Shown here: one piece after another, positions 15,317 through 63,362 of the stretch | Layout: each line of letters starts with the position of its first letter | Numbering within the stretch: position 1 is the stretch's first letter | Virus record (IMG/VR): IMGVR_UViG_3300048998_000202 | DNA length: 64,000 bases | Origin: a virus | Lineage: Duplodnaviria > Caudoviricetes | Reading direction: 5' to 3' (one strand) | Program-made: the position numbers and the translations under genes | Notes under the pieces: model-generated | What the model was told of the DNA's origin: nothing | Seen by the model: only the letters and a program-made list of their open reading frames with translations | The model's database searches: none

Positions 15317-15452
15317 AAAGGATCCCCTCCCACAAGGAGAGGGGATCCATCCGGGTCTTCTAGAGACCCTCCCTGCCATGCCATGACCTGCCACACCCTG
15401 CCAAGCCCTACCGGGCCGAGCCCTGCCACACCTTGCGACCCTGACTCTATCA
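15317..15452 (-). ncRNA. GGY-NN repeat small-RNA cassette A
   Basis: TGATAGAGT, 12 pentamers (NN: GT AG TC CC AG TT AG GT AG AT AT AG), then hairpins. Confidence 0.8.
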
Positions 15453-15713
15453 AGACTTAGGCGGATCATCCGTCTCGGGATAGATCTGGTTGTGGACTTC
15501 CACATAGTGGGCCCCTTCCAGCAGCGAGGCGTTGCCCGGCTTCCACGACCAGAAGAAGCTGTCGTCCACCACGACCTTCACTCGCTGCCCCAGACCCCTC
15601 AGGTCTTCCAATCGCCAGACGTACTTCACCGAGGGGTCCCTGGGGTTGATCTCCCTCTCCCTGCACCAGTCCTCGAACTGGTGCAGGGAGTTGGTGAGAA
15701 CCAGGGTGATCAT
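15450..15713 (-). CDS. small hypothetical protein
   Basis: MITLVLTN...; ATG overlaps the DinG stop. Confidence 0.6.
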   Translation of the reverse strand: MITLVLTNSLHQFEDWCREREINPRDPSVKYVWRLEDLRGLGQRVKVVVDDSFFWSWKPGNASLLEGAHYVEVHNQIYPETDDPPKS

Positions 15714-17728
15714 CAGGCGGCCTGTCCGAAGGGGCGGCCCTCGAAGAACGCCTGCACGTCGGCGAGCTCGGTGGAGACCGGGAAGTCCGGCAGCGCGGTG
15801 ACGATGCCCCGGCCGTACGGGGTGCTGGTCAGACGAGAGTCCAGAACGGCCACCACACCCCGGTCGGTGGTGGTACGGATCAGGCGGCCGATGGCCTGCT
15901 CCAGAGACAGGGTCATCATCGGGATGGCCAGCGAGCTGAAGGGACGGCGTCCAGCCCGCTCCTCGGCCAGCGAGCGGGCCCGGTAGATCGGGTCGGACGG
16001 AACCGGGAACGGGAGCTTGTCGATGATCACCAGGCGACACGCATTGCCCGGGATGTCCACCCCGACGAAGAAGCTCTTCAAGGCGAACAACACGCTGTGC
16101 TCGTCCTCCCTGAAGATCCGGGCGAGCTGCTTGTTGCTCCGACCATCACCTTGCATCATCGTGGTCAGCCCCCGGTCGGCCAGGCGGTCCGCCAGGTCTT
16201 CGTACGCAGCCTCCATGGCCTTCCTGGAGGTGTAGAGCAGCAAGGCGCCACCCTGGGCCGCGTCGACCAGGGAGAGAGTCGTCTGAACCGCGTAGCCGCT
16301 CCAGGAGGCGTACTCCTTGGGCGAGGGCACCGCCGGTCCAGGGACGAACATGCCGCCCTGCTTCCGGAGATCGAAGGGGGTGCCGACGTCGACCGTCCCG
16401 GCGTCCCACAGGCCCAGGGTGCGCTTGATGTAGGTGAAGTCGCCGTTGCCCTGGCGGTCCTTGCCCGCCGAAAGAGTCGCGGACATCACGATCGAGGGGG
16501 TCTCGTCCCAGAGCATCTTCTTCAGGAAGGGGGCGACGTCCACGGGGGCGATCTTCAGGCGCCAGTAGTCGTTGTCCCGGACCTTGTAGCCCTCGACCCA
16601 GCGGACACGCTCGTGGTCCTCGGAGAGCAGCAGCTCCTCCAGGGTCTCCAAGGCGTTGCGGATCCGGGCCTGGAGCAGCTTGAGCTTGGCCTGCTGCCGG
16701 TCGTGGTCGACTTCGATCTTGATCCCGGTGAGGTCCAGGTAGACCGACTTCAGCAGGTCGCCCAGGTCCGCGAAGGGCTCGAAGTTCTCGGTGAACCAGC
16801 TCTGGGTCAGCGCGTTGCCGACCAGCTCGGACATCAGTCCGTCCATCCGGTTCATGATCAGCACGCAGGAGTCGACACGGTCGGTCAGGTCACCACCGTG
16901 TACGGCCGTGAAGGTCATCGCGTCCCGGATCAGCAGGGAGACGCCGCGCGGGGTGAAGTCCCGGCCGAGCGCGTTGGCCGCGTACTCCGGCAGCTCGTGG
17001 CCCTCGTCGAAGAGCACCACCCCACGGTCGCCGAGCATGGTGAGCGGCGGGGTGTTCTCTCCCCGGGTCTTCTCCTGTATCACCAGGTCGGTCATCAGCA
17101 TGGCCTGGTTGGTGACCACCAGGTCGGATTCCAGGCCCTTGCGCTTGGCCTTCTCTGCGTAGCAGATCTCCCCGAAGGGGCACTCGGACTTCCCCGGGCA
17201 CTCGGCGGAGGAGCTGGCCAGCTTGGACCAGGTGAAGTTGTCGATCTCGACGTCAAAGTGCTCGCGGTCGCCGGAGTGCTCCTCGTCGACCTTCAGCTCG
17301 GCCCGGACGGCCTCGGCGGTCTCGTCACGCTCCATGTCGTCGCTGTTCAGCTTGACCTGGCAGGCGTAGTTGGAGCGGCCCTTGACCAGGGCCCAGGTGA
17401 AGGGGATGCCGGACTTCTCGGCCAGGAAGGGCAGGTCCTTGGTGGCGTACTGCTCCTGAAGGGCCTTGGTGGCCGTGGCGACAATGATGCGCTGGCCCTT
17501 GTGCAGCGCCTGGATCAGCGCCGGGGTGACCCCACCCAGGGACTTGCCGGTACCGCAGCCCGCCTGGACGTACAGGGACTCGCCCTTGGCCAGGGCCTGC
17601 TCGATCGCGGAGGCCATCTTCTGCTGCGGCTCGCGGGGCTCGTAGCCCGGCAGGTGCTTCGCGAAGTTCACCTCGACGGCGGAGAAGCTGGCGGGTATGT
17701 CGCGGGTCTCGGTCGGGGTGACGGTCAC
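15713..17728 (-). CDS. dinG: DinG/YoaA-family helicase with Fe-S cysteines
   Basis: QAGCGTGKS, KGRSNYAC, CPGKSECPFGEIC, FDEGHEL, MSATL, IDKLPF, QAIGRLIR. Confidence 0.93.
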   Translation of the reverse strand: MTVTPTETRDIPASFSAVEVNFAKHLPGYEPREPQQKMASAIEQALAKGESLYVQAGCGTGKSLGGVTPALIQALHKGQRIIVATATKALQEQYATKDLPFLAEKSGIPFTWALVKGRSNYACQVKLNSDDMERDETAEAVRAELKVDEEHSGDREHFDVEIDNFTWSKLASSSAECPGKSECPFGEICYAEKAKRKGLESDLVVTNQAMLMTDLVIQEKTRGENTPPLTMLGDRGVVLFDEGHELPEYAANALGRDFTPRGVSLLIRDAMTFTAVHGGDLTDRVDSCVLIMNRMDGLMSELVGNALTQSWFTENFEPFADLGDLLKSVYLDLTGIKIEVDHDRQQAKLKLLQARIRNALETLEELLLSEDHERVRWVEGYKVRDNDYWRLKIAPVDVAPFLKKMLWDETPSIVMSATLSAGKDRQGNGDFTYIKRTLGLWDAGTVDVGTPFDLRKQGGMFVPGPAVPSPKEYASWSGYAVQTTLSLVDAAQGGALLLYTSRKAMEAAYEDLADRLADRGLTTMMQGDGRSNKQLARIFREDEHSVLFALKSFFVGVDIPGNACRLVIIDKLPFPVPSDPIYRARSLAEERAGRRPFSSLAIPMMTLSLEQAIGRLIRTTTDRGVVAVLDSRLTSTPYGRGIVTALPDFPVSTELADVQAFFEGRPFGQAA

Positions 17729-17768
17729 TTGTGCCCTCCTCGGATCTTCTCTGGCAGACGCCAGACTA

Positions 17769-17786
17769 CACCAACAATCCTTGGAG
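17769..17786. promoter_or_regulatory. operator-like site CACCAA-N6-TTGGAG in the dinG promoter
   Basis: 17/18 identical to the reverse complement of 57341-57358. Confidence 0.6.
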
Positions 17787-17857
17787 TGGGAAGAGAGATT
17801 TTAAAAAGCCTGAACCCCCCGGACCAGAGGTTCGGGGGGTTCTAGTTCAGGGGCCAC

Positions 17858-18997: not shown

Positions 18998-19066
18998 GGT
19001 CCTGGACAAACAGAACGACCGCCCCACCTGTATGGGACGGTCGTACCGTGACACAAGGAGCATACC

Positions 19067-19963
19067 GTGACGATCGAGCGCAGGGCCTCGCCCTTCGACT
19101 CCATCCGGTACGTGGATCCGGACTTCGGCGAGTGCTGGTACGCCCGGGAACTGATGCCGCTGATGGGGTACTCCCTGTGGCGCCACTTCAACTCCGTCAT
19201 CGGCCGGGCCCGGACCTCCATGAGCAACGACGGCCACGACGTCCGGGAGCACTTCTGGCTGATCAAACGGCCTGCCGAGGTTAATGTCGACCGGTCGACA
19301 AAAACCTCTGACCAGGGAGGACGTCCCTCTGTCGACTTTCGACTGAGCCGCCACGCCTGCTACTTCATCGCCATGAACGGCGACCCGAAGAAAGAGCAGG
19401 TAGCGCTCGCGCAGGGCTACTTCGTCGGCCAGACGGTGAAGATGGAGCAGATCGAGAGGGCTATCCAGGCGCCCCCATCTCCTCCCGTGGCGCTTCCGCC
19501 GATGCCCAGTCACATCGAAGCCCTGCGGGGCTGGGCGGACGCCCTGGAGGGCCAGCAGAGGGCCGAGCAGGTCGCTCTGGAGGCCCAGCGCCTCGCGGAG
19601 GAACTGCGCCCCCCTGCGGAGGCGTGGAACGCCCTGGCGGCAGCCGGAGGGGACTGCTCGGTGGCCGAGGCCGCCGCGATCCTCAACCGGGATCCCGGCA
19701 TCGTCACCGGTCCGGCCCGGCTGTTCCGGTGGCTGCGTGAGATAGGCATCGTCTACCGGCGGCCCAACGATCAACTCGTGCCGTACTCCCAGCACCTGAC
19801 GCACGTACGGCTCCGGCCGACCAACGGGGGCGCCACCGAGGTCCGGATCACGCCGGACGGGCTGGTGTGGATTCAGCAGCGGATGCGTCAGGAGCAGCAG
19901 CGTCCGGCACTGACGATCGTGCCGGACCAGAAAGCCGATGTGGTTCCGATACGTAGGACCTGA
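19067..19963 (+). CDS. phage antirepressor (BRO/DinD-like N-terminus plus ANT/KilAC C-terminus)
   Basis: SPFDSIR, WYARELMPLMGY, LSRHACYFIAMNGDPKKEQVALAQGYF; SVAEAAAIL..RLFRWLR..VRITPDGL. Confidence 0.88.
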   Translation: MTIERRASPFDSIRYVDPDFGECWYARELMPLMGYSLWRHFNSVIGRARTSMSNDGHDVREHFWLIKRPAEVNVDRSTKTSDQGGRPSVDFRLSRHACYFIAMNGDPKKEQVALAQGYFVGQTVKMEQIERAIQAPPSPPVALPPMPSHIEALRGWADALEGQQRAEQVALEAQRLAEELRPPAEAWNALAAAGGDCSVAEAAAILNRDPGIVTGPARLFRWLREIGIVYRRPNDQLVPYSQHLTHVRLRPTNGGATEVRITPDGLVWIQQRMRQEQQRPALTIVPDQKADVVPIRRT

Positions 19964-20063
19964 TAGAGTCAAGTCTTGCAGGGCACGGTAGGGCTAGGCT
20001 AGGCAAGGCCCGGCGCGGCAGGGCACGGCATGGAAGGGCGTCATCCTTCGGGGTGGCGCCCTC
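19961..20063 (+). ncRNA. GGY-NN repeat small-RNA cassette B
   Basis: TGATAGAGTCAAGTCTTGC, 10 pentamers (NN: AC AG TA TA AA CC GC AG AC AT), hairpin AGGGCGTCATCC-TTC-GGGTGGCGCCCT. Confidence 0.85.
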
Positions 20064-20825
20064 AGTCGTTTGACCACAGACATGGCGAAGGCCCCCAGCT
20101 CCACGAGTTGCTGGGGGCCCTGCTGTGCCCGGATCGGGGCCGCCCAGGCGGACGGGCTATGCTCCGCGTTCGCTGCCTCTGCGCTTGACGACGCAGTACC
20201 GGCGTAACGAGGACTTCCCCTACGCCCTTGTTTTCCGGGCTGGCAAGAGGACGTAGCTCGCCATGGTCGGCTCGGATGTGCGTCCGAGGTGCCCGGTCAC
20301 GCCGTCGAGTTCTCCCAAGACGGCGCGGATCTATGGTGCCCCGTTCCGGCCACAGGAGGGGCGGGCCTGCCGTTCGGACGGTCTAACGAGACCGCACGGC
20401 CTGAGACACGCGAGACCGTGCTTCCCCTCAGGGGCCGACTTCCCGGAACTCGAAGGGGAACCCAGGTCATCGGCTGATCTCACGTGCGTCTTGGGTGCCC
20501 CCATATGGCCACAGGAGGGGACGAACCTGATGTGCGGGAAACGGAAGCAACCCTGGCCGTGTGTCCGACAACTGCGAAGAAGCGGACACCGTACGGGGAA
20601 GGCGATTTGCACGCCGACACGAACTCCCTAGGTGGGACATCGGGAGGTGACGCGGGCTCCGCCCCGAACTCCCACCGGGGTTTCACCCTCCCCGCTCGGG
20701 CGACCAGAGACTTCTTCAGCTCCTGGTCGCCGTCGCGCCGTGCATCCTACCGAGCTGATCCACGAACATCGGCTCGGGCTGACGAGAAAGACGCTACTCC
20801 AACGAATGCCGGAGTAGCAAGTCGA

Positions 20826-28290: not shown

Positions 28291-31200
28291 TTAGTTACCG
28301 GTGTAGATGACGGACTGCGGCATGACGGACGCGTGGGTGGCCGCCGGGGACCCTTCGTCCACGCCGACGGGAACGGTGTCGGGAAGGAACGACCGCTGGG
28401 TGACGGGGGTCGGCTGGATGTTCTGCCGGATGGCCTGGCGGTAGATGTACCACCAGTCCTGAGGGATGACGTTGTGCCAAGCCTGGAACATCGGGTCGTC
28501 GGTGATGACCGGCGTCTGGTCCAGGGGGGTCAGTGAAGGACCGCCCCGCTGGACGGTGTACTTGCCGGGATTGCCGGGGGTGACGGAGTCGAACCAGGGT
28601 CGGACCTCGACCGCGCTGACGCTCAGGTCGGCCGCCGCTCCGGTCACCCGCCACACGATCGCGGCGCCCCCTCCCGCGATGGCCTCGTCTTCGGCCGGGA
28701 AGACGAAGACGCCGTTGGGGTCATTGCGGATGTCCCAGACGGGCCAGAAGGTCTGGCCTTCGTCCCGGCTGAACTCCCACATGATCGCGTCGTTGAAGAT
28801 GCTCAGGTTGTCGACGTACCAGACGTCGTGGGTGACCTCGTTCTGGAAGAGCTGCACAGTGACGTCGTGGACGTCCACGGTGACGTCGCCTTGGGCGATG
28901 TCGTTCCAGGTGCCGATGACCTCCAGGTCGTCCCACGTACCCAGTGCCTCGATGTCGGTCCAGAGCAGCGTTCCATCGGGGACTCCGCCGGATCCGATGT
29001 TGTACTCCACGAACCATTCAGTGATCTGACCGGCAGAGACCATGGCGGGTTCTTCAGCCAGGATCGAGCCGTCCCAGTTGACGAGCTGGAGGAACAGCGG
29101 AGACGACAGCGTCTGTGCGGCAAGCACCCGTACCGCCGCGTACAGCTTGCCGATCGGGGAGACCTCGACGGTCTGGAAGGACTGGATGCCGCCCAGGGCT
29201 GTCGCTGTGACGGTGCCCTCCAGGGTGTCCCAGGTCGGTACGTACGGATTGGGATCGGAGTCCTCGATCCCGTTCCAGGAGGCGAAGTCCTCCATCGACG
29301 ACCACGTCACGGGGGCCCCGGCGCGGTCGACTCGAACCAGCGATCCGACCTCGGTATCGAAGAACGGGTCGGGGGTGATCGTGGCGTCTCCCACCGGCCG
29401 CCAGAACTGGAGGGAGGTGTCGTCGAAATCCGAGTCCAGAAGGAGCTGCTTGGGGGGTGACTGGGTGGTGGCGAACTGAAGGGCCCGCACGGTCCGGAAC
29501 GACTTGTAGGGCTGAGAGGTCAGGGACAGCGGGATGTTGAGGGTCTGCGGGGTGAGGATCGTGTCCTCCCCCAGGGTCCAGTTGGGGATGGCCAGGTCGT
29601 AGACCAGGTTGCTGGCGTCGTGAAAGAGCTCCAGGTAGACGTCGGTGTCGTCGGCGATCTGGAGGTCGGACCGGTACATCTGGATCTGAGACAGGCCCAC
29701 GAAGTACGCCACACGGCTGGTCGCCGCCACGGTGACGTACTCGTAGTAGTGCTGACCGGTGGCCGACTGCCGGGGCATCGTCGGGCTGGGACTCTGCTGG
29801 GCGAAGTTCCAGTACGGCGCGGACAGGGCCATTCGTGCCGCGCCCTGGGGGTCGGTGACGAACTGGGCCTCGGTCGGCAGGTAGGTCGTGGTGGATCCCG
29901 CGTTGGTGTCCACTGAGGCGCTGCCCGAGGCTGTCAGTCGGTTCTGGTCGTCGTACCGGTTGACCGACGCCAGTCGGATATTCGATTGGACGCCTGAGCC
30001 ACCGGAGTTCGAGGACTGCGCCGTGGCCTTGGCGGCTGTCGGAACAGTGTCGGGGTTCTGCGCGAAAATCTTCGCGGTGGAGACCATGGGCGAGTCGGTC
30101 TCATACGGTTCGGCGATCAGGTTCGTAAATTCGAACTTGAAGAACCGGGCCTTGGTCGGATTGAAGTCGTAGAAGCCCTTTTTGAGCTGGTAGTCGCGAC
30201 CGATAGGAGTCCAGAGCAGGTCCTCGTAAACGACGCCGGGACCACCCAGGAATCCGTAAGGATTCAGGGACTGCGTATCTGCGGTCTGCTGCTGGGGGTC
30301 GTAGCGCAGCAGCATGTTGTCCGTGGTCTGGGGTCCCTGGGGGTACTCAGGGGTGACGACGAAATCGGAGTAGTCCGCCCAGTACTGGGTCATCGTGTCC
30401 AGGTCGTCCGGCGTGCCCTGTTTGATGTACAGCGACACCAGTCGGGCGTTGGCCGGTGTGGCGTCCTCGGCCTCTGCGGTCAAGGACCCACCGATGCGCA
30501 GCACTGCCGGAGGATTGGTCCCAGGAACGATCTCTCCGGATACGGCCGTGATGATCTGGTACGGCGGAGGAGGAGTTTCTTCCTCGGAGTTGTCTCCTGT
30601 GGTCTCCAGCGGGGTGTACATCATCAGGTTGGTGCCGTCGTAGGACAGAACGAACCGCAGCCGGGCGTTGTAGTCGAAAGGCAGGCCCGACCAGGTCAGC
30701 AGCATGGTGCCCAAAGACACCTGGAAGACCCCGGTGCTTACCGTGCCGGTGGGGTCTGCACCGAAGAAGACCTTCAGAACGCCGTCATCGTAAATCGCCA
30801 CCTCATCGGTGGAGGTGTACGGGAACTGCGGCTGTACGACCATGCCGATCTGGAACGGCTGTGTGGAGTCGAACTGGACCACCGTGTTGTCGATGTCCAG
30901 GAACGAGGCGCTGTTCGGGAAGAGGATCCCGTCAGGCGCGGGAACAGGCAGCACTGCGCCGTACGGCCGGGTGGCGGGGAAGGACAGCGGGGTCTGGGAT
31001 GCGGTGAAGACCGCTGGATTCGGGATTTGCAGGGAGTAGTAGATGTTCACCGTAGAGCCGGTGTACAGGGGCTCCAGGTAGAACTTCTCGATGACCTGGG
31101 GATTGCCGGACGAGTCCCGGACGTCGGCGTACAGGCACACCACAGCGGAGGCGAAAGGCTGAGGAGCGCACTTCCAGACGGCCCCGGTTCCGGCCAGCAG

Positions 31201-32583
31201 ATCCGTGGCCCGGTTTTCCCGGACGGTGTACTCGACGGAGGAACCGAGCAGATCTGCGGCGGAGGCAATCGTGGTCGACTCGGTGACCACGTCGTCGGAT
31301 CGGTTGACCACGGGGACATCGGTCCGGCTGGCCACCTGATAGCCGAGATTGAAGTCCTTGACGCCCAGGGAGTAGTCGACCGGCTGGTTCAGGGACGAGA
31401 CCGGGACGTTCTCCGAGGGCAGGCGCGCCATGACGATCCGGAACCGGGATGCGGTAACCGGAGAGATTTTAAAAAGATACTGAGTCCAGTGACCGGACCC
31501 GAAGTGCTGTGGATGCAGGTGGGTGTTGTCCGATACCCCCGAGGAAATCACCTGCGGTATGCAGTCCTGGATCGAGATGACCGCCGCCAGATTGTTCTGC
31601 TGGGCACAGGTCTGCCAGATCCCTCCGGCATCCATGTACTGCACCCATGCCCGCTGCGGGAAATGCGCCAGGGAGAAACCGATCTGGTTCACCCGCTGCA
31701 CGGTAGACAGCGACACCGCGAAGACTTCTCGGGTGGTGTCTCCGTTGGGTCGGGCGGGCGTGGAAAAGAACTGCTGGTTCGCGGACTCCTGCTGACTGGC
31801 GATCAGAGAGGTGTTGGCCGCCAGGGAGGTGTTCAGGGCGTCCAGAGGTGAGCCGTTGACGTACAGCTTGGCCAGCGTCGGCAGCCCGGTGTCGCCGGGC
31901 ATGCCGGACTGTCCCGAGTTCGCCGTGGGCGCCGTGGCCGCACCTCCACTACCGCTCGGAGGGGGCGCCACGATCGTGGACATGCCCTGGGCCACGGCGT
32001 TGGCGAAGGCGTAGAAGGCGTCGGTCTTGTTGATCCGGTTGGCCCGGGAGGTGTCGCCGTTGAGGAAGAATGACTGCCGCAGAGCCAAGGTGAGTTCGAG
32101 CTGTACCCCCATGCTGCGCAGGTTCTTCTGGGTGATGTTGGCCGGGTCGTTGCCGTCCAGCTCGGTGGAGGCAACCGAGGTGGTGAATCCCGCAGCGGTC
32201 AGCGCCGTGGCGATCTTGTCCCGCAGGACGGTGTCCGCACCACCCATGAAGACCTGCGGGGTACCCCCGGAGGCCCCGTGCCAGGAGATCGTGTACTGCG
32301 ACTCCCCCACGATCCGCAGCGCATTGGGCTCGTCGAAATGGGTGCTGGTCAGGTGCAGGACGGAGTTCCCTGAAGGCTTCTTGCCGTCGAAGGTGTAGTA
32401 GTTCACCCCCTGGAGGCCCGCCATGTAGTCGGCGATCTCGGTGGTGCCCGACTCGATACCGCCGCCGTGGATGGCGATGTGGACCAGCGGGTTGTAGATC
32501 CCCTCGCGGAAGGTGATCAGGTAGTCCGTGCCCAGGACCTGGTGCGCCGCCAGGTCAGCGTAGTTGGTGTAGGTATCGACCAT
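28291..32583 (-). CDS. large baseplate/tail protein with N-terminal poly-gamma-glutamate hydrolase-like domain
   Basis: IAIHGGGIESGTTEIA, LHLTSTHFDEP, ISWHG, GVQLELT motifs of the PghP family in the first ~200 aa. Confidence 0.75.
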   Translation of the reverse strand: MVDTYTNYADLAAHQVLGTDYLITFREGIYNPLVHIAIHGGGIESGTTEIADYMAGLQGVNYYTFDGKKPSGNSVLHLTSTHFDEPNALRIVGESQYTISWHGASGGTPQVFMGGADTVLRDKIATALTAAGFTTSVASTELDGNDPANITQKNLRSMGVQLELTLALRQSFFLNGDTSRANRINKTDAFYAFANAVAQGMSTIVAPPPSGSGGAATAPTANSGQSGMPGDTGLPTLAKLYVNGSPLDALNTSLAANTSLIASQQESANQQFFSTPARPNGDTTREVFAVSLSTVQRVNQIGFSLAHFPQRAWVQYMDAGGIWQTCAQQNNLAAVISIQDCIPQVISSGVSDNTHLHPQHFGSGHWTQYLFKISPVTASRFRIVMARLPSENVPVSSLNQPVDYSLGVKDFNLGYQVASRTDVPVVNRSDDVVTESTTIASAADLLGSSVEYTVRENRATDLLAGTGAVWKCAPQPFASAVVCLYADVRDSSGNPQVIEKFYLEPLYTGSTVNIYYSLQIPNPAVFTASQTPLSFPATRPYGAVLPVPAPDGILFPNSASFLDIDNTVVQFDSTQPFQIGMVVQPQFPYTSTDEVAIYDDGVLKVFFGADPTGTVSTGVFQVSLGTMLLTWSGLPFDYNARLRFVLSYDGTNLMMYTPLETTGDNSEEETPPPPYQIITAVSGEIVPGTNPPAVLRIGGSLTAEAEDATPANARLVSLYIKQGTPDDLDTMTQYWADYSDFVVTPEYPQGPQTTDNMLLRYDPQQQTADTQSLNPYGFLGGPGVVYEDLLWTPIGRDYQLKKGFYDFNPTKARFFKFEFTNLIAEPYETDSPMVSTAKIFAQNPDTVPTAAKATAQSSNSGGSGVQSNIRLASVNRYDDQNRLTASGSASVDTNAGSTTTYLPTEAQFVTDPQGAARMALSAPYWNFAQQSPSPTMPRQSATGQHYYEYVTVAATSRVAYFVGLSQIQMYRSDLQIADDTDVYLELFHDASNLVYDLAIPNWTLGEDTILTPQTLNIPLSLTSQPYKSFRTVRALQFATTQSPPKQLLLDSDFDDTSLQFWRPVGDATITPDPFFDTEVGSLVRVDRAGAPVTWSSMEDFASWNGIEDSDPNPYVPTWDTLEGTVTATALGGIQSFQTVEVSPIGKLYAAVRVLAAQTLSSPLFLQLVNWDGSILAEEPAMVSAGQITEWFVEYNIGSGGVPDGTLLWTDIEALGTWDDLEVIGTWNDIAQGDVTVDVHDVTVQLFQNEVTHDVWYVDNLSIFNDAIMWEFSRDEGQTFWPVWDIRNDPNGVFVFPAEDEAIAGGGAAIVWRVTGAAADLSVSAVEVRPWFDSVTPGNPGKYTVQRGGPSLTPLDQTPVITDDPMFQAWHNVIPQDWWYIYRQAIRQNIQPTPVTQRSFLPDTVPVGVDEGSPAATHASVMPQSVIYTGN

Positions 32584-51220: not shown

Positions 51221-53970
51221 GCGATCTTCGTGACGCGCAGCCACGAGTTGGCGAACAAGGTGGTGGCTGTGGCGCTGGACGTGGCCTGGGCCCAGCGCAG
51301 GGTCAGACTCCCGGCGGTGCTCCCGACCGTCAGCAGCCCTCGGGGAAGGGCGACGGCCTTGACTCCGGCTCCGGAGGCTCCCACTGTGTCCTCGACCCCG
51401 AGAGGCTGCCGGGCGAGTTTGATGCTGCCGGTGCCGCCGGTCTGACTGGCCGAGGCCCCGTTGACGGTCCAGTCCATGAGGGCGCCGGTCGGACCGGTGA
51501 AGGTGACGCGCAGGTCTCCTGCGGTGTCGCCGTCGTAGAGCAGGAAGGCGTCCATGAGGTAGATGCCGTTGGCGGCGACTGATACGACAAGTTGGTCATC
51601 GTCCTGGACGGTGATGCTGCTCGTCACCGTCTCGTCTGCGGTCTTGCGGACGACTGTGATTGGCTGCTGTCCGTGGGCAAGGTCGTAGTCCGTGCCGTCG
51701 GAGCCCTTCCAGCGGGGCAGGCCGGACGAGGAGTACATGACGCCGCCGCCGGTAGGGGTTCCTGCCGGAGGGGTCGTGGCGTCGGCCATGCCCAGGACCC
51801 CGATGCCGCCGCCCAGTGAGGTGGTGTTCAGGCGCAGTGCGGTGGTGGCCTGGAGGGCCCCGTCGGTCTTGAGGACAGCGACGTTGGAGCGGTAGAGGTT
51901 GGTGTCCCGGGTGGCCGCCCCGGTGCCCCACTCCTGCTTGCCGTCCACGTACGTGACGTGCCGGGTGGTGGTGTCCCCCGACACCTGGCCCTGCCAGGAG
52001 CGGGCCGTGGTGTCCGTACCCGTCACCATGGCCCCCTGGCCGCCGGTAGCGGTCGGCAGGATCGTCAGGGCTATACCGCTGGCGCGGGTGAGGGACAGGC
52101 CGCCAGCGGTGCCTGAGGAGCCTCCGATGGACACCAGGCCCGTGGAGCGGGTCACGGCGATCGGGGCGTCCAGGAGGGTGCCTGCATCGTCGTAGCGCAG
52201 GATCTGGAGGTCGGTGCCGGTGTCACCGCCAGCTTCGGTGGTGTTGTTGGCCCGCAGGATCCAGCGGCGGCCCGTGGTGCCCATGTCGCTAGAGATCGAC
52301 AACTGGAGGTCCTTGTGGACCGTGTTGTTGCCGCCGACACGCAGGGCGGTGTTCTGGCCCGCGTAGGTCCCGGTGGCCATGTTCTGGGCCCGGACCGAGA
52401 AGTCCGCCAAGTTGGTGCGGATGTTGGTGTAGTCGATACCGATCGCCACGTTGTCGATCGCGTGGGCGCCGTCCACGGCCTGATTGATGAACGGCACCTC
52501 CAAGCGGCCCTGGAGGGCGCCTGTGGAGTCCGCGATCTCCAGTTCCCAGTGCCCGTGTACCGAACCGTGGTCGTTCGCCTCGTAGTGCGCGCCCGTCCAC
52601 ACCACGGGCTTCCAGCCGATGCCGCTCGACATCGGATTCCGGGTGGCCGGGTCGTAGCCGCCCTTCTTCGTGGAGGTCTGGACGGGAAGGTAGAACGCCA
52701 GCATGGTCTTGGCGTCGCTGCGCATGGCGAAGTTGCGAATGGTCTCGCCGAAGGAGCTGAAGTTGGCCCGCTGATACGAGTACAGATTCAGGCGGCCCGT
52801 GGTGTCGGTGCCGGTGCCGTCGTCGTCGCCTCCGGTGTAGGTGGAGGGGATGCTGACGGAGTCCACGGCCCCGGTGCTGCCGATGGGGTATCCCGACACG
52901 GCTCCGAAGCGGTTGAGGACGAGCTGTCCTGCAACCGTGCCACCGGCAAGCGGCAAGTAGGTGCTGGCGGCATTCGCCCGATCCCCATGAGGATCACTGG
53001 CGGCCACATGCGAGGCCACCACGGCCGCCGGGGCGTCTCCGGCAGCCACGGTGGTGGAGGACGTCCCCACATTCTTGGTGGCAGCGCCCCCCAGACCCAG
53101 GCTGGTACGCGCTGTCGCGGCATCATCGAGGTCGGAGAGGTTCGAGTCGGCCTGGAGAGCGCCCGTGATGCGGGAGTCGTCTCCGGCCGCGATCTGGTTG
53201 GTGGAGGTACCGACGTTGCGGGTGGAGGAGTTACCGAGGCCGAGGTTGGTGCGTGCGGTAGGGGCGTCGAGGTCAGAGAGGTTCGCGGACTTCTGAGCGG
53301 CTCCGGTGATGCGGGCGTCCCCGCCGTCGGCCACGGTGCCGCTCGTGGTGCCCACGTTGCGCAGGGCTGCCGCGCCCAGCCCGAGGTTGATGCGGGAGGC
53401 GCCCGCGTCGTCGAGGTCGGAGAGGTTGTTCTCGACCAGCAGGCGACCGGATTCGACATCCGTGACCCGACTGGCCAGCGTGGCTCCGGAAGAGGCCGAA
53501 TAGGCACCTACGTCGCTTGAGGTCAGCGTCACCGGACCGGTCTTGGTGTTGACCGATGTCACTGCGGAGGAGGGCGCCGGAGGGAGTTGGCCCGAGGGCA
53601 CCTTGCCGTCACTCCCGAGCGAGGCCACGCCGTTGGCTGCGCCCTTCGCGCTGACCGGAACGTAGGAGCCGCTCAGCGACTGCACGATCTGGCCGGTCTG
53701 GGCGTACAGGGTGGTGAGGGCCCCGGCGCTGTTCCTGGCGTAGACCTGGGTGAGGCCGTCAGGGCCGAGGAACTGCGGGATCAGGCAGTCCGAACCGATG
53801 TCCAGAGTGGAGCCGATGGGAGTGCCGTTGGGCGCCTGGATGCTGGCGAGGGTAGTCCCGGCCGAGTCGGTGTAGATGGTGACCGTGTCGCCCTGGGGGC
53901 TGTACAGGGGTGTTCCGGGCGTACCGTACCGAAAGACCAGGCGGTCCTGGGGGAACAGCCAGCGCGTCAA
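51217..53970 (-). CDS. tail fibre/appendage protein
   Basis: KGAANGVASLGSDGKVP, VTSVNTKTG, three NLSDL..ARTNLGLG repeats, DTNLYRS. Confidence 0.8.
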   Translation of the reverse strand: MTRWLFPQDRLVFRYGTPGTPLYSPQGDTVTIYTDSAGTTLASIQAPNGTPIGSTLDIGSDCLIPQFLGPDGLTQVYARNSAGALTTLYAQTGQIVQSLSGSYVPVSAKGAANGVASLGSDGKVPSGQLPPAPSSAVTSVNTKTGPVTLTSSDVGAYSASSGATLASRVTDVESGRLLVENNLSDLDDAGASRINLGLGAAALRNVGTTSGTVADGGDARITGAAQKSANLSDLDAPTARTNLGLGNSSTRNVGTSTNQIAAGDDSRITGALQADSNLSDLDDAATARTSLGLGGAATKNVGTSSTTVAAGDAPAAVVASHVAASDPHGDRANAASTYLPLAGGTVAGQLVLNRFGAVSGYPIGSTGAVDSVSIPSTYTGGDDDGTGTDTTGRLNLYSYQRANFSSFGETIRNFAMRSDAKTMLAFYLPVQTSTKKGGYDPATRNPMSSGIGWKPVVWTGAHYEANDHGSVHGHWELEIADSTGALQGRLEVPFINQAVDGAHAIDNVAIGIDYTNIRTNLADFSVRAQNMATGTYAGQNTALRVGGNNTVHKDLQLSISSDMGTTGRRWILRANNTTEAGGDTGTDLQILRYDDAGTLLDAPIAVTRSTGLVSIGGSSGTAGGLSLTRASGIALTILPTATGGQGAMVTGTDTTARSWQGQVSGDTTTRHVTYVDGKQEWGTGAATRDTNLYRSNVAVLKTDGALQATTALRLNTTSLGGGIGVLGMADATTPPAGTPTGGGVMYSSSGLPRWKGSDGTDYDLAHGQQPITVVRKTADETVTSSITVQDDDQLVVSVAANGIYLMDAFLLYDGDTAGDLRVTFTGPTGALMDWTVNGASASQTGGTGSIKLARQPLGVEDTVGASGAGVKAVALPRGLLTVGSTAGSLTLRWAQATSSATATTLFANSWLRVTKIA

Positions 53971-54004: not shown

Positions 54005-54038
54005 TCACCCCTTCTTCGGACTCAGGAGATCCAGGACA
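54005..54038 (-). promoter_or_regulatory. candidate late promoter TGTC-N20-GAAGGGGTGA
   Basis: Upstream of the fibre gene, right after the cassette C hairpin. Confidence 0.7.
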
Positions 54039-54041
54039 TGG

Positions 54042-54151
54042 CTGAGGGCGCCACCCCGAAGGATGACGCCCTCCCCTGCCGCGCCGCGCCTCGCCCTGCC
54101 ATGCCGAGCCTAGCCGTGCCGTGCCGCGCCGTGCAAAACCTGACTCTATCA
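54042..54151 (-). ncRNA. GGY-NN repeat small-RNA cassette C
   Basis: TGATAGAGT, 11 GGC-NN pentamers (GC AC AC TA TC AT AG GA GC GC AG), hairpin nearly identical to cassette B. Confidence 0.85.
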
Positions 54152-54159
54152 GGTCCTGG

Positions 54160-55982: not shown

Positions 55983-56086
55983 GAAGGCCCGCTCCCCACG
56001 GGCGGGCCTTCGTGCACACTCATCAGGATTTTAAAATCCTGTCTCCTGCTGCTGCGCTGCTCCACGCTGCGGAGCGGACTCTATCA
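55983..56086 (-). ncRNA. non-repeat small-RNA cassette F
   Basis: Same TGATAGAGT head and GAAGG...CCTTC terminal hairpin; body has hairpins rather than pentamers. Confidence 0.5.
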
Positions 56087-56674
56087 GGACGTGGGGGTCT
56101 GCGACCGCTCGGTCAGCATCTGCTGGAGACGGTTCAGGGCCTGCTCCTGCTTCTCGACCTTGTCCGCCAGTTCGGCAGTGGTCTCCTTGGTCTCCCGGCG
56201 GACGGCCTGGGTCTCCTTGCGGGCGGCCTTCAGCCCCTCCTCCAGCCGATCCTGCCGCCGCGACAGACGCCGGGTGATGTCCGAGACGGCCTGGAGAGCC
56301 CCGGCCTGAGCGTCGTACACCTGCCCCTGCTGCGGAGTCAGCTCGTTGCGGTCGGCCTTGGTCAGAAGATCTATGGCCGTACGGATCCGGCGGTTGGCCT
56401 TCTTGGTCTGGTACCGGGCCGCGCCCCCGTGCTCGGAGGCGTGCATGACGCGGTAGCCCACTTCCCGCTCGTTGGTCAGAGCCCGCTGGTGCTTGTCCAG
56501 CAGCTCCTTCTCCGCACGTCTCACCGGGCTGCGGTCGAGCCGGATGTTGATTCCGGCCCACTCCGAGAGCTCCTCGTACGTGACGACGGTGTCCGGATCG
56601 AGGTCGCGCAGACCCTCATAGATCAGGACCCAACGGGCGACGTCGCCCTTGGGCTCGAACGGCTTGGTGCCCAT
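56084..56674 (-). CDS. partner protein of the RAMP-like gene (wHTH-like N-terminus, coiled-coil C-terminus)
   Basis: VVTYEELSEWAG..VRRAEKEL..NEREVGYRV; heptad-rich C-terminus; co-oriented, 44 nt downstream. Confidence 0.65.
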   Translation of the reverse strand: MGTKPFEPKGDVARWVLIYEGLRDLDPDTVVTYEELSEWAGINIRLDRSPVRRAEKELLDKHQRALTNEREVGYRVMHASEHGGAARYQTKKANRRIRTAIDLLTKADRNELTPQQGQVYDAQAGALQAVSDITRRLSRRQDRLEEGLKAARKETQAVRRETKETTAELADKVEKQEQALNRLQQMLTERSQTPTS

Positions 56675-56718: not shown

Positions 56719-57297
56719 TCAGCCCTGGATCTGGGTGACCTCGACGTCGAACCGCCCGAACCGGGGACGGTAGTCACCCAGTCCGATCATCTGGCCCGCC
56801 TTCTCGGCGATGCTGGTGATCTGGTCCAGGTCGAGCTGGCCGTCGTCCACGATCAGGTCGGCCTCCAGCGCCCACTGCGGGAACTTGGGCCGGGTGCGCA
56901 TGACGCGCGAGGTGGTGACCCCCACGGAGAGCCGGGAGACGAAGTTCTTGTCCTTCCACAGTCCCTCGACCGTACGGGATCCGCTGTAGCCCAGGGGGTG
57001 GATCTCGTTGACGACGACGACACCTCGCTCGACGGCCGGGCCCTGCCGGGTCATCTTGGCCGCCTTGATCAGGCAGGCGTGGATGTTGGCGCCGGGGATG
57101 TACGGACCGGTCTCCTCGTCGAAGTACAGGCCGCCCTCGAACTCGATGCGGGCCATCTCCTCGTGGTCGGACTCGGTCTTGATGCGCTTGCCGGAGACCT
57201 TTTTGAGCTGCTTGGTGATGGTCGCCAGCGGGTCGGACAGTTGCGCGTTGTGCATCAGCAGCGACGTGGTTCCGATGATGGTCAGGCGGACCTGCAT
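56719..57297 (-). CDS. RAMP/Cas7(Csm3)-like RNA-binding protein, candidate effector of the GGY-NN RNAs
   Basis: N-terminal strand VRLTIIGTTSLLMH, PYIPGANIHACL (cf. Csm3 PYIPGSSLKG), Gly-rich loop GLGDYRPRFGRF; RBS before ATG at 57297. Confidence 0.75.
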   Translation of the reverse strand: MQVRLTIIGTTSLLMHNAQLSDPLATITKQLKKVSGKRIKTESDHEEMARIEFEGGLYFDEETGPYIPGANIHACLIKAAKMTRQGPAVERGVVVVNEIHPLGYSGSRTVEGLWKDKNFVSRLSVGVTTSRVMRTRPKFPQWALEADLIVDDGQLDLDQITSIAEKAGQMIGLGDYRPRFGRFDVEVTQIQG

Positions 57298-57370: not shown

Positions 57371-57874
57371 AAAACGAAGGGCCCGGGATCCGAAGATCCC
57401 GGGCCCTTCTCCATGCCTCGCCGTGTCGAGCCTTGCCATGCCGGGCCATGCCCGACCAAGCCGTGCCACGCAAGACTTGACTCTGTCAGTTCCACCACGA
57501 TCTGTCAAACGACGAAGGGGACCACCCGGAGGTGATCCCCTTCTCCCTGCCGTGCCTTACCCGGCCCTGCCTAGCCATGCCACACCGCACCACGCCCCGC
57601 AGGTCTTGACGTTATCAAGACCCTTCGGAGCCGTCAATGACGAAGGGGCCCTCCGTAGAGGACCCCTTCTCCTATGCCAAACCTAGCCATACCCTACCCT
57701 GCCACGCCAAACCTAGCCAAGCCATGCCCTGCAAGACTTGACTCTGTCAGCTCCTACGGCATCTGTCAACGACGGAGGGGCCCCACCGTAGTGGAGCCCC
57801 TCTCCCATGCCCGGCCTTACCCAGCCCTGCCTTGCCTCACCTCGGCCAGCCGTACCGAGACCTTGACTGTATCA
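57371..57874 (-). ncRNA. array D: four tandem GGY-NN small-RNA cassettes (D1 57874-57774, D2 57769-57642, D3 57637-57514, D4 57508-57371)
   Basis: Each has a TGA-extended -10 (D2-D4 with TTGACR 17 nt upstream), 10-11 pentamers and a GC hairpin. Confidence 0.88.
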
Positions 57875-57877
57875 GGA

Positions 57878-58747
57878 TCAGTAGAACCGGGACCAGTACC
57901 GGGGCCGCGCCGCCACCGAGCCCGCCATGCGGGTAGGCCCGTACCTGCCGTAGACGCCGCCCGAGATCAGGACGGCCGGGCGTCCGAGACCCATCTGGCT
58001 GATCTTGAAGACATCGAGCTGGGACTTGGCGGCCTGCTCCTCCTCCATGAGGACGTCCCGCCAGCGCTGGACGTAGTCCCGGCGGTCCAGTCGGGAGACG
58101 TTGCCGGAGCCCTGGAACATGGGCTGCTCGGTGTAGGAGCGGATCAGGTGCTTGAGGGTCTCGATCCAGGTCATGGCCTCCAGCAGCGGGCCCCACTGGG
58201 GATAGGGGAACTGCGCTCCCCCGTCGCCGTCCACGGTGAAGGTCTGGAAGGGCTGCGCGATGGTGTTCATGCGCCCGAGCGCGATGCGCATCAGTTCGGC
58301 GATCCGGCCCCGGCCGAACTTCGACTGGACGTAGGTCGTCAGGTTGGGGCCGCCACCTGGGGAGTCGATGGTGTCGGCGATGCGGACCATGACGCGCTCG
58401 ATGATGTCTTTCATCGGGACCACCAGGCCGTCGTACGACGGGGCGGCCGGGCCGATCTCGATGCCGGACTCGTAGTACTCCTGCTGACCGGTCAGCAGGT
58501 ATGTCCAGGCCAGGGTGTAGGAGCCCGGGACGGAGGTCTCCACGCTGTTGAAGGTCGCCGAGTAGTCGCCGGTCGCGTTGTGGGTGGCCAGCCGGGAGAA
58601 GATCTCGTTGCCGGTGTTCTCGGAGACCATGGTGAGGGTGACCCCGGCGTCGGCATCTATCGGGACCTGGTTCTGGAGGATCTTCAGTCCCACCACGTCC
58701 ACGGCGTACTGCGATACGTACTGCCGATCGTTCCAGTACAAGGCCAT
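57878..58747 (-). CDS. head-tail adaptor protein, putative
   Basis: Position in the head module. Confidence 0.55.
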   Translation of the reverse strand: MALYWNDRQYVSQYAVDVVGLKILQNQVPIDADAGVTLTMVSENTGNEIFSRLATHNATGDYSATFNSVETSVPGSYTLAWTYLLTGQQEYYESGIEIGPAAPSYDGLVVPMKDIIERVMVRIADTIDSPGGGPNLTTYVQSKFGRGRIAELMRIALGRMNTIAQPFQTFTVDGDGGAQFPYPQWGPLLEAMTWIETLKHLIRSYTEQPMFQGSGNVSRLDRRDYVQRWRDVLMEEEQAAKSQLDVFKISQMGLGRPAVLISGGVYGRYGPTRMAGSVAARPRYWSRFY

Positions 58748-59410: not shown

Positions 59411-59437
59411 CCGCTCCCGATCCTCTCGTGGTGACCT

Positions 59438-59471: not shown

Positions 59472-59503
59472 GGACCGGTCGGGGCGACTACCAATAGATG
59501 TGC

Positions 59504-59540: not shown

Positions 59541-59550
59541 ACGTCCGACA

Positions 59551-60936: not shown

Positions 60937-60964
60937 GGTGCTGCTCCCTCGGGGACTCGGTGTA

Positions 60965-61585: not shown

Positions 61586-61598
61586 GTGTCGCCCCTTC

Positions 61599-62135: not shown

Positions 62136-62196
62136 GAGGGTCTCCGTTCGTGAAGGTCTTCTCGTCCTTTACGCGGAGTCGTCACGGGTCCAACAG

Positions 62197-62237
62197 GAAA
62201 GGCCCCGGCCCGGGGGTACCGGGGCCAGGGCCTTTCG
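62197..62237. terminator. hairpin
   Basis: GAAAGGCCC...GGGCCTTTC. Confidence 0.5.
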
Positions 62238-62358
62238 TGGACGATCGGCGCCACGACTCAGGTCCGTGGGGGACGGAAGGAATCGGCGCCGCCTCGTGCA
62301 CGGGGAGCGTGGCACGGTGGGGTAGACGCTGTCAAGGCGAATGTGTTCCACTGGAGAG

Positions 62359-62598
62359 ATGGAAGATCAGCACACGATGCAGACAGACACCCCCACCGAC
62401 GACCTGAAGCTGTACGGGATCTCCGAGCTGGCGGATCGCTGGAAGGTCTCTAAGCAGCGGGCTGACGAGATCGCCTCCAAGCGCCTCCCACAGCCCCTCA
62501 CGCTCAAGATGGGCCGCATCTGGACAGAACTCCAGGTGGAGAACTTCGAGAGAGGGTGGGTCCGTAAGACGGGGCGTCACATCGTCCCCAGGACTTGA
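62359..62598 (+). CDS. small AlpA/excisionase-like HTH protein heading array E
   Basis: LYGISELADRWKVSKQRADEI..LPQP..GRIW...VE; GGAGA RBS before ATG at 62359. Confidence 0.75.
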   Translation: MEDQHTMQTDTPTDDLKLYGISELADRWKVSKQRADEIASKRLPQPLTLKMGRIWTELQVENFERGWVRKTGRHIVPRT

Positions 62599-63362
62599 TA
62601 TCGTCAGGGGTTACTGGGCTCGGCAGGGCTAGGTAGGGCAGGACTGGGCACGGCATGGGAGGGGCTTCCTACGGGGAGCCCCTCAGCCGTTGACAGGCGC
62701 TCTTGGGAGTGACAGAGTCAGGTCTTGCAGGACCACACGTGGGCGTGTGGAGAAGGGGCGCTTCTTCCAGGAGGCGCCCCTTCGTCGTTTGACAGACCGG
62801 CACGGGGGTGACAAAGTCAGGTCTTGCATGATGGGAAGGACACACGGTTGGTTTCTGAGGCCGGAACCGTGTGGATGCGATCGGCCCTCAAGGCCGTGGA
62901 CGCGTCCGAAGGCCCCCTCTGAAGATTCCTGGAGGGGGCCTTCGTTCGTTTGACCGGACGACATTAGGGCTGACAGGGTCAGTTCTTACAGGGCACCGTC
63001 TGGTTGGGCACGGTAAGGCATGGTGGGGTAAGGCACGGCTGGGCAGGGGAGGGCGACCATCTTCGGATGGTCGCCCTCAGCCGTTTGACAGGTGCGGGTG
63101 GAGCTGACAGAGTCAAGTCTTGCAGGGCCGGGCCCGGTAGGGCGTGGTTTGGCGTGGTGTGGTTGGGCAACGCATGGCATGGCATGGCAGGGGAAAGGCC
63201 CCAGGATTTTAAAATCCTGGGGCCTTTCGTTACGCCCTGAAGGAACTGATAGAGTCATGGTCTCGGCAGGCCGAGGCTAGGTAAGGCACGGCGGGGCAAG
63301 GCACCGCCCGGTAGGGCAAGGCATGGGGAAGGCCCCCTCGGATTCTCCCGAGGGGGCCTTCC
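62596..63362 (+). ncRNA. array E: six tandem cassettes (E1 62596-62684, E2 62690-62783, E3 62789-62943, E4 62950-63078, E5 63085-63228, E6 63247-63362); E2 and E3 lack pentamers
   Basis: Repeating promoter-like head, 8-13 GGY-NN pentamers and GC hairpin. Confidence 0.88.

What the first reader, a model, noticed from the sequence alone, without database searches (positions are those of the whole stretch)
15317..63362. Dinucleotide usage across all 11 guides looks like antisense codon positions 1-2
By hand count of 119 units, AG is about 22 (CTN, Leu), AT about 18 (Ile/Met) and AC about 14 (Val). CT occurs once (AGN codons) and CA never (TGN, Cys/Trp). This is the bias expected if guides are phased to codons of GC-rich genes. 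Decoded peptides: A L[IM][IM]LTL[KN]LG[DE]LT; B [IM]VLAG[FL]YYLV; C LAASL[IM][DE]YVVA; D1 [IM]R[FL][HQ]L[FL]SS[HQ]V; D2 [IM][KN]Y[IM]LLT[KN]Y[KN][IM]; D4 [IM]SV[DE][FL][IM]G[IM]R[KN]V; E1 [IM]V[HQ]LLYL[DE]; E4 L[HQ]V[FL]P[IM][FL]V[HQ][SR]V; E5 L[IM][IM][IM][FL][HQ]TT[KN]TLGR. The last pentamer is always GGC-AT or GGC-AG, so it is probably a fixed 3' handle, which inflates those two counts. Inference: synonymous wobble mutations would give targets no escape.
Basis: partly seen in the sequence, partly recalled or inferred. Interest (0 to 1): 0.8.

Follow-up and report, generated by a model that had tools for sequence, protein, structure and literature searches.

The report
VIPR guide RNAs reading codons

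Summary
The window has 11 tracts of about 10-13 NN-GGY pentamers. My counts are AG 20, AC 13-14 and AT 12 (18 with the terminal units), CT 1 and CA 0. Every tract ends in a fixed A[T/G]-GGR unit.

The tracts are vrRNA genes of a VIPR system. A Vipr protein gene (56722-57297, minus strand) lies beside tracts D1-D4. It matches the solved SUSP1 Vipr (E 3.7e-35) and keeps its tested RNA- and DNA-contact residues.

The codon reading is supported by targets, not only by composition:
- Across 12 related phage sequences, matches of at least 85% numbered 42 with a one-base skip, 4 with no skip and 7 with a two-base skip.
- Every credible hit puts the skipped base on codon position 3.
- Seven of eight independent guide-target pairs in this clade are antisense.
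- E6 spells a capsid peptide at 21-23 of 24 bases in most relatives, but only 19 of 24 in the phage's own gene. All five own-gene mismatches fall in Leu or Ser codons.
- D3 spells RLYMTATP, a motif of Type ISP restriction and Streptomyces HA-domain helicases. D2 spells ILLTNYKML of DruE-like helicases.

The skip rule and wobble-proof targeting are in the 2026 preprints. This scan has also reported VIPR loci, a recoded self target and a helicase-motif guide on other DNA. This locus is a new member of a known kind.

The parts
56722..57297 (-). vipr gene, 192 aa; the RAMP protein that polymerises on the guide RNA
   Evidence: Matches phrog_4652 at E 9.7e-59 and PDB 36pp_D, the SUSP1 Vipr protein, at E 3.7e-35. 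H16, K32, R38, K81, R136, D175, Y176 and R177 align to SUSP1 H17, K33, R39, K82, R138, D177, W178 and R179. The AF2 model has pLDDT 96.7.
56087..56674 (-). Candidate vap (accessory) gene, 196 aa, immediately downstream of vipr
   Evidence: In synteny with the gene that follows vipr in other phages. It is 24% identical (E 1e-6) to Gordonia phage MakoManhole gp77, annotated as a DNA binding protein. Also matches phrog_5926. The match to the Felixounavirus counterpart is not significant.
57375..57880 (-). Four tandem vrRNA genes D1-D4, directly upstream of vipr. Arrays lie at 57804-57863, 57676-57735, 57544-57603 and 57410-57474.
   Evidence: D3 spells RLYMTATP. D2 spells ILLTNYKML.
15317..15462 (-). 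vrRNA gene A (array 15365-15439)
   Evidence: No target found.
19955..20070 (+). vrRNA gene B (array 19975-20039)
   Evidence: No target found.
54035..54158 (-). vrRNA gene C (array 54068-54142)
   Evidence: No target found.
62584..62690 (+). vrRNA gene E1 (array 62615-62664)
   Evidence: Only borderline hits of 14 of 16, and these lie outside ORFs.
62950..63235 (+). vrRNA genes E4 (array 63000-63054) and E5 (array 63119-63193)
   Evidence: No target found.
63235..63362 (+). vrRNA gene E6 (array 63258-63327), whose guide is aimed at the major capsid gene of related phages
   Evidence: Matches 23 of 24 bases in G3, G4, G5, G7 and G10, 22 in G1 and G2, and 21 in G11. The skip falls on the wobble base and the reading is antisense.
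63499..63534 (-). The phage's own capsid-gene copy of the E6 target, recoded
   Evidence: Same peptide, FLGVFPVLYSLD, but only 19 of 24 guide-read bases match. All five mismatches lie in three Leu codons and one Ser codon.
16215..16240 (-). Site in the DinG/XPD-like helicase gene targeted by a guide of relative G1
   Evidence: G1 guide at 149188 matches 17 of 18 bases (null maximum 14), with the skip on the wobble base and antisense. G1's own copy matches 14 of 18.
53933..53961 (-). Site near the start of the 917-aa tail-fibre-like gene, targeted by a guide of relative G8
   Evidence: G8 guide at 7999 matches 18 of 20 here and 19 of 20 in G3 and G4.
63692..63720 (-). Second capsid-gene site, targeted by a guide of relative G8
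   Evidence: G8 guide at 740 matches 18 of 20, peptide SARILINPFD.
62690..62950 (+). Two cassettes (E2, E3) with the same 5' box and a GC hairpin but no pentamer tract
   Evidence: Their function is unknown.

Best explanation
The 11 tracts are genes for VIPR guide RNAs (vrRNAs) of a novel actinobacterial myophage.

Anatomy: each gene has a conserved 5' box (CTGAYAGAGTCARGTCTTGCA, often with TTGACA 17 nt upstream), 8-13 NN-GGY units, a fixed A[T/G]-GGR unit and a GC-rich hairpin.

Mechanism, by homology to the solved SUSP1 system: one Vipr protomer binds each repeat. It buries the GGY and presents the NN bases, and these pair with two DNA bases while every third target base is flipped out.

In this clade the skipped base is the codon's wobble base. 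The guide usually pairs with the coding strand, so a guide recognises a conserved peptide whatever the third-position changes.

Targets found are the capsid, helicase, tail-fibre and vipr genes of sister phages. For D3 and D2 they are conserved motifs of SF2 helicase genes found in Streptomyces and other bacteria.

The phage's own copy of a target escapes by using the other codon family at Leu, Ser or Arg.

Shown here: the anatomy, Vipr homology, the skip rule, the frame, the strand tendency and the self/non-self codon pattern. Inferred from the preprints and not tested here: transcription, RNP formation and silencing.
For: - Vipr homology.
- In IMG/VR, 81 of about 120 loci carrying seven GGCNN in a row also carry a Vipr homologue beside the arrays.
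- Preprints describe the same RNA, protein and rule.
- Skip rule reproduced in this clade: 42 hits at or above 85% with skip 1, against 4 (skip 0) and 7 (skip 2). With 443 queries over 1.87 Mb at 90% the figures are 65, 9 and 10, though low-complexity guides inflate the skip-1 count.
- All credible hits have the skip on codon position 3.
- About 117 of 120 exact genome hits to the 8-unit core of D3 lie in long ORFs, in frame and antisense, and spell RLYMTATP.
- The first nine units of D2 match exactly in DruE-like genes of 2 of 301 Streptomyces genomes, with 0 control hits.
- Seven of eight independent pairs in the clade are antisense (one-sided binomial p = 0.035).
- The antisense over sense log-likelihood for the window's guides totals +41 bits.
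- E6 and G1-149188 show own-gene recoding only at Leu, Ser and Arg codons. The clade uses TTR for 5% of Leu and AGY for 25% of Ser. By that usage the window's four opposite-family codons have a chance probability of about 6e-4.
Against: - Targets were found for only 3 of the window's 11 guides. A, B, C, D1, D4, E1, E4 and E5 have none in about 2 Mb of phage DNA, and the D4 metagenome hits look random.
- The composition fit of the antisense model is barely better than uniform.
- The excess of A at N1 (50%) is larger than any proteome average predicts. It needs an added assumption, enrichment for hydrophobic core motifs.
- One clade pair (G6 to G3) and two pairs from other loci are sense.
- Guide G8-740 matches its own capsid gene at 17 of 20, as well as it matches several relatives, so self-avoidance is not universal.
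- G8 and G9 share the window's resistant capsid codons without a known E6-like guide.
- The consensus promoter and terminator scan did not call the box or most hairpins.
- No expression data are available.
Confidence: 0.9

Rival explanations
1. The guides are VIPR vrRNAs and are codon-phased, but they have no real strand preference. The antisense excess seen here is a sampling effect, or comes from a few shared targets.
For: The preprint reports natural targets on both strands. In 2645 units from GC-rich VIPR loci the best mixture is 50:50 sense to antisense. Genome G7 has a net log-likelihood of -12 bits, favouring sense. Per-guide likelihoods give the right sign for only 5 of 7 known pairs.
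Against: Seven of eight independent clade pairs, and all three window guides with targets, are antisense. The window total is +41 bits and G1 is +23 bits for antisense. AG, the commonest unit at 17%, would mean AGN codons under a sense reading, and these make up about 2.4% of codons here.
Confidence: 0.3
2. The NN bias comes from constraints on the RNA or on Vipr binding, such as a preferred purine after GGY or avoidance of C and of self-pairing. It does not come from what the guides read.
For: N1 is purine-rich and C-poor in all 123 VIPR loci examined, whatever their GC content (A 0.30-0.38, C 0.07-0.16). An independent-site model fits the window better than any codon model.
Against: A 50:50 mix of sense and antisense codon positions 1-2 roughly reproduces the general N1 and N2 frequencies, on my own estimate of codon-position base frequencies rather than a tool result, and fits better than uniform. 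Folding energies of the 11 guide tracts do not differ from dinucleotide shuffles (z -1.6 to +0.5). Real targets match base for base.
Confidence: 0.1
3. The tracts are protein-sponge or scaffold RNAs that wrap a ring protein, as the trp leader wraps TRAP (11 triplets with 2-nt spacers), and carry no sequence information in NN.
For: About 11 triplets at 5-nt spacing resemble a TRAP site. This was my first working idea.
Against: There is no TRAP-like gene. The associated protein is a RAMP that has been solved as a helical filament on this kind of RNA. The NN bases match targets far above null.
Confidence: 0.01

Closest known systems
Type II VIPR systems of Escherichia phage SUSP1 and a Pseudomonas fulva prophage (bioRxiv 10.64898/2026.04.26.720920, 10.64898/2026.04.26.720927 and 10.64898/2026.10.15.759431)
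   Same: A Vipr RAMP protein with the same contact residues. A small gene follows it that may encode a DNA-binding protein. The vrRNAs have 9-16 GGY/NN repeats ending in an AUGGG-like unit plus a structured 3' tail. The one-base skip rule holds, the skip falls on the wobble base, and the targets lie in rival mobile elements, vipr genes among them.
   Different: The host range is actinobacterial and the phage is a roughly 155-160 kb myophage clade with only about 29% sheath identity to any isolated phage. Seven of the 11 guide genes are scattered over at least 48 kb, each with its own promoter-like box and a plain GC hairpin rather than the SUSP1 pseudoknot tail. The guides show a strong antisense tendency. 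Related phages target each other's structural and replication genes. The phage's own targets are recoded at six-fold codons. Two guides match helicase genes of bacterial defence types.
Class 1 CRISPR-Cas Cas7 backbone with crRNA
   Same: A RAMP fold with a G-rich loop and a thumb. One protomer binds per RNA repeat, and the thumb breaks the guide-target duplex at regular intervals.
   Different: There are no CRISPR repeats, no adaptation genes and no nuclease. The period is 5 nt on the guide against 3 nt on the target, not 6 against 6. The system is encoded by a phage.
TRAP with the trp leader RNA (Bacillus)
   Same: About 11 conserved triplets separated by 2-nt spacers.
   Different: The protein family is unrelated. 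In TRAP sites the spacers carry no information, whereas here they specify the target.

Membership tests
VIPR system | A Vipr protein (stand-alone RAMP) is encoded at the locus | tested here: met
   (E 3.7e-35 to PDB 36pp_D). The functionally tested residues are conserved. AF2 pLDDT is 96.7.
VIPR system | vrRNAs made of 9-16 tandem GGY/NN repeats, with GGY conserved and NN hypervariable | tested here: met
   The 11 arrays have 8-13 guide units. Only D3 has orthologues in relatives; the other guides are unique to this phage.
VIPR system | A conserved structured 3' tail caps the repeat tract | tested here: inconclusive
   Every tract is followed by A[T/G]-GGR and a GC-rich hairpin. The sequence differs from the SUSP1 pseudoknot tail, and no covariation test was run.
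VIPR system | An accessory vap gene lies next to vipr | tested here: inconclusive
   A syntenic 196-aa gene has weak similarity to the gene after vipr in MakoManhole (E 1e-6). It has no significant match to the Felixounavirus counterpart and no Pfam family.
VIPR system | Targets follow the one-nucleotide skip rule | tested here: met
   42 hits with skip 1, against 4 and 7 with skips 0 and 2. E6 matches 23 of 24, against a shuffled-guide maximum of 19 on G1.
VIPR system | The skipped base aligns with the codon wobble position in coding targets | tested here: met
   True of all credible hits, of about 117 of 120 D3 core hits and of both D2 hits.
VIPR system | vrRNAs are expressed, bind Vipr and silence transcription | not testable with these tools
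No wet-lab data exist.
CRISPR-Cas | A repeat-spacer array together with cas adaptation and effector genes | tested here: not met
   There are no direct-repeat/spacer arrays. PADLOC finds no Cas hits for the three array-adjacent proteins scanned.

The most novel reading that the evidence does not exclude
In this actinophage clade VIPR is used in a way the preprints do not describe.
- Guides pair almost always with the coding strand.
- Each phage recodes its own copy of a targeted gene at six-fold degenerate Leu, Ser and Arg codons. These are the only synonymous escape the gapped code leaves, so they serve as a self/non-self mark.
- The guides next to vipr (D2, and D3 which is conserved in four phages) are aimed at host defence-type helicase genes (DruE-like, Type ISP or TtrA-like). 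That would make VIPR a counter-defence tool as well as a weapon against rival phages.

This scan's own notes on other genomes report the second and third ideas as well.
Probability: 0.3. Interest if true: 0.65.

Novelty: new member of a known kind. Interest (0 to 1): 0.4.

Why it matters
This locus gives an independent check, in a distant host group and by sequence alone, of the central claims of the 2026 VIPR preprints: the one-base skip, the wobble alignment and phage-against-phage targets.

It also supplies a natural set of about ten related 150-160 kb phage genomes that aim guides at each other's capsid, helicase, tail-fibre and vipr genes. This set makes two questions directly testable:
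- How a gapped guide tells self from non-self when the peptide is identical. Codon-family switching at Leu, Ser and Arg is the candidate answer.
- Whether VIPR has a strand preference.

The D2 and D3 matches raise the further possibility that phages silence host defence helicase genes.

Tried and rejected
- **TRAP-like ring-protein sponge** was my first idea. I dropped it once the adjacent protein proved to be Vipr and the NN bases matched targets.
- **G-quadruplex and DNA-level repeat ideas** were considered and dropped for the same reason.
- **Known RNA and phage matches:** Rfam at gathering thresholds gave no family, there are no tRNAs, and blastn of the D cluster against isolated phages gave no match.
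- **Self-targeting:** no window guide has an above-null one-skip match in the window except E6, at 19 of 24.
- **Guides without targets:** A, B, C, D1, D4, E1, E4 and E5 gave no nucleotide or peptide-level target in the 12 clade sequences or in 120 other VIPR loci.
- **D3:** the exact 10-unit pattern had no hit in one genome per species, so I used the 8-unit core instead.
- **D4:** the 9-unit core gave 14 metagenome hits of mixed GC, mostly in short ORFs, about the number expected by chance. I did not count them as targets.
- **Promoter and terminator scan:** the consensus scan did not call the conserved box, because its -10 is (C/T)AGAGT, or most hairpins, which lack a T run. Transcription units are therefore inferred.
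- **Folding:** energies of the guide tracts do not differ from shuffles.
- I rebuilt the guides from the loci instead.
Full report
**Observation**

A scan for period-5 GGC-like triplets finds exactly 11 strong arrays in the window. They lie at 15365-15439, 54068-54142 and 57410-57863 (four arrays) on the minus strand, and at 19975-20039 and 62615-63327 (four arrays) on the plus strand.

Oriented as RNA, each array has the same layout:
- a conserved box, CTGAYAGAGTCARGTCTTGCA, found 18 times against 4.5 expected by chance, often with TTGACA 17 nt upstream;
- 8-13 NN-GGY units;
- a unit A[T/G]-GGR;
- a GC-rich hairpin followed by a TTCGTCGTT-like tail.

Counts are AG 20, AC 13-14, AT 12 (18 with the terminal units), AA 11-12, CT 1 and CA 0 inside guides. 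The terminal unit is a fixed handle. In the E6 alignments neither it nor the leader unit follows the target.

**What it is**

The window is part of a novel actinobacterial myophage. It has 65% GC, a DnaE-type polymerase, a DnaB-like helicase and a tail sheath only about 29% identical to those of Mycobacterium, Rhodococcus and Gordonia myophages.

Searching IMG/VR for seven GGCNN units in a row gave at least 120 loci with GC from 37 to 76%. Clustering ORFs around them showed one roughly 190-aa protein next to the arrays in 81 loci. The window's own copy lies at 56722-57297, directly downstream of D1-D4.

That protein is phrog_4652 (E 9.7e-59). It matches one solved structure, PDB 36pp "SUSP1 Vipr protein" (E 1.9e-46 with a profile, 3.7e-35 alone). 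Its AF2 model is confident, with pLDDT 96.7.

Three 2026 preprints describe the system: Viral Interference Programmable Repeat, or VIPR.
- Vipr is a stand-alone RAMP that forms a filament on vrRNAs made of 9-16 GGY/NN repeats plus a 3' tail.
- It buries GGY and presents NN, which pairs with double-stranded DNA while every third target base is skipped.
- Natural targets lie in coding sequences with the skip "overwhelmingly" on the wobble base, on both strands.
- The outcome is transcriptional silencing of rival satellites, prophages and other VIPR systems.

The residues those papers test (H17, K33, R39, K82, R138, D177, W178, R179) align to H16, K32, R38, K81, R136, D175, Y176 and R177 in the window protein. 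The next gene (56087-56674) is a weak relative of the gene that follows vipr in Gordonia phage MakoManhole.

**Composition test**

I built codon models from 38 GC3-supported genes of the window and scored the 117 guide units.

| Model | Log-likelihood (bits) |
|---|---|
| Antisense positions 1-2 | -463.6 |
| Sense positions 1-2 | -502.9 |
| The four phases containing a wobble base | -526 to -637 |
| Uniform | -468.0 |
| Fitted independent-site | -437.3 |

The units clearly avoid wobble-like composition and favour antisense over sense. The codon model does not, however, explain the main feature, A at N1 in 50% of units.

In 2645 units from GC-rich VIPR loci, sense and antisense 1-2 fit equally well (-4.03 bits per unit). 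Other phases fit much worse (-4.6 to -4.8), and the best mixture is 50:50. Folding energies of the 11 tracts do not differ from shuffles.

**Target test with nulls**

I fetched two complete relatives with guides, G1 (159.7 kb, 20 guides) and G7 (154 kb, 12 guides). I also fetched a complete relative with no vipr and no guides, G3 (156 kb), and seven fragments.

- All guides against all 12 sequences gave 42 hits at or above 85% NN match with a one-base skip, against 4 with no skip and 7 with a two-base skip.
- Every hit of a guide of at least 8 units that lies in a GC3-supported ORF has all its skipped bases on codon position 3.

Independent guide-target pairs in the clade:

| Guide | Target | Match | Strand |
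|---|---|---|---|
| Window E6 | Capsid gene of relatives | 21-23 of 24 | Antisense |
| G1-149188 | Window helicase gene, 16215-16240 | 17 of 18 (null maximum 14) | Antisense |
| G8-740 | Capsid gene, including window 63692-63720 | 17-18 of 20 | Antisense |
| G8-7999 | Tail-fibre-like gene, including window 53933-53961 | 18-19 of 20 | Antisense |
| G2-6559 | LLMHNAR motif of the vipr genes of G8 and G9 | 16 of 18 | Antisense |
| G6-26780 | A 626-aa gene of G3 | 17 of 18 | Sense |

**D3 and D2**

The exact 10-unit pattern of D3 found nothing in one genome per prokaryote species.

Its 8-unit core is shared with guides of G1, G10 and G8.

These genes are of two kinds:
- Type ISP restriction-modification enzymes (Mrr_cat_2, ResIII, ISP_coupler, N6_Mtase and Type_ISP_C domains in a Mycobacterium MAG);
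- Streptomyces helicases with HA domains, several of them near contig or replicon ends.

The best full-guide matches to D3 are Streptomyces genes, at 19 of 20 and 18 of 20.

D2 was searched in 301 Streptomyces genomes with up to three mismatches. It hit two genomes and the reversed control hit none. In both, the first nine units match exactly, in frame and antisense, spelling ILLTNYKML in genes whose best PADLOC match is DruE (E 7e-51).

Counting D3 and D2, seven of eight independent clade pairs are antisense (one-sided p = 0.035). Two pairs from other VIPR loci are sense. D4's metagenome hits look random, and eight window guides remain without a target.

**Self and non-self**

All 11 sequences that contain the site encode the same capsid peptide, FLGVFPVLYSLD.

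- E6 matches five relatives at 23 of 24 bases, but the window's own gene at only 19 of 24.
- The five mismatches sit in three Leu codons (TTG where the guide reads CT, twice; CTG where it reads TT) and in the Ser codon (AGT where it reads TC).
- The clade uses TTR for 5% of Leu codons and AGY for 25% of Ser codons. By that usage, being in the opposite family at all four sites has a chance probability of about 6e-4.
- G1-149188 shows the same thing. The window has TCC AGG and matches 17 of 18; G1's own copy has AGC CGC and matches 14 of 18; the peptide is LLYTSRKAM in both.

The pattern is not universal. G8-740 matches its own gene as well as it matches several relatives. G8 and G9 share the window's resistant capsid codons.

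**Verdict**

The codon-phased, wobble-skipping reading is correct and can be shown here with real targets.

Both the rule and its "no escape by wobble mutation" rationale are already in the 2026 preprints. This scan's own notes also report VIPR loci, a recoded self target and a helicase-motif guide in other genomes.

Three points go beyond what I could find in those texts:
- the antisense tendency in this clade;
- synonymous escape through six-fold degenerate codons;
- guide matches to defence-type helicase genes.

All three rest on few cases and no experiment.

Noticed in passing
window 62690-62950: Two cassettes (E2, E3) sit between E1 and E4. They have the same 5' box and a GC hairpin but no pentamer tract. 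They could be decayed guides or a different small RNA using the same expression signals.
   Followed up: no
L128 1640-1760 and 2880-3150 (Gordonia phage MakoManhole): Here the vrRNA tracts are separated by tRNA-like minihelices: an acceptor-type stem enclosing a GGTTCGACTCC T-arm. This suggests processing by tRNA-maturation enzymes rather than by own promoters and terminators.
   Followed up: no
L046 5690-6010; L087 1960-3550; L008 640-1200: Other VIPR loci use other separators between guides: a short GGCACCGCAGGC unit, a one-base phase slip (GGCAGGC) across about 32 consecutive guides, or a 60-nt hairpin handle.
   Followed up: partly
G3 = IMGVR_UViG_3300003316_000301 (L147-L154): This complete 156-kb relative has no vipr gene and no guide arrays. 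Guides of the window (E6, 23 of 24), G6 and G8 all hit it, so it looks like an unarmed target lineage.
   Followed up: partly
window 63258-63534 and 15365-16240; G1 148283-149237: Guide genes tend to lie within about 1 kb of the phage's own, recoded copy of the gene they target. E6 lies beside the capsid gene and G1-149188 beside the helicase gene. Window guide A occupies the same position as G1-149188 but carries a different guide.
   Followed up: partly
window 28294-32583: The 1430-aa tail protein begins with a poly-gamma-glutamate hydrolase domain (PF05908, E 3e-58), which hints at a host with a polyglutamate capsule or wall polymer.
   Followed up: no
window 56020-56045 and 63200-63225: The same palindromic loop sequence (CAGGATTTTAAAATCCTG) occurs in two terminator-like hairpins about 7 kb apart.
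   Followed up: no
L127 2500-2930 and 4060-4310 (Escherichia phage VpaE1): Felixounavirus records carry NN-GGT guide tracts in stretches left unannotated on both sides of the vipr gene and the gene after it.
   Followed up: partly
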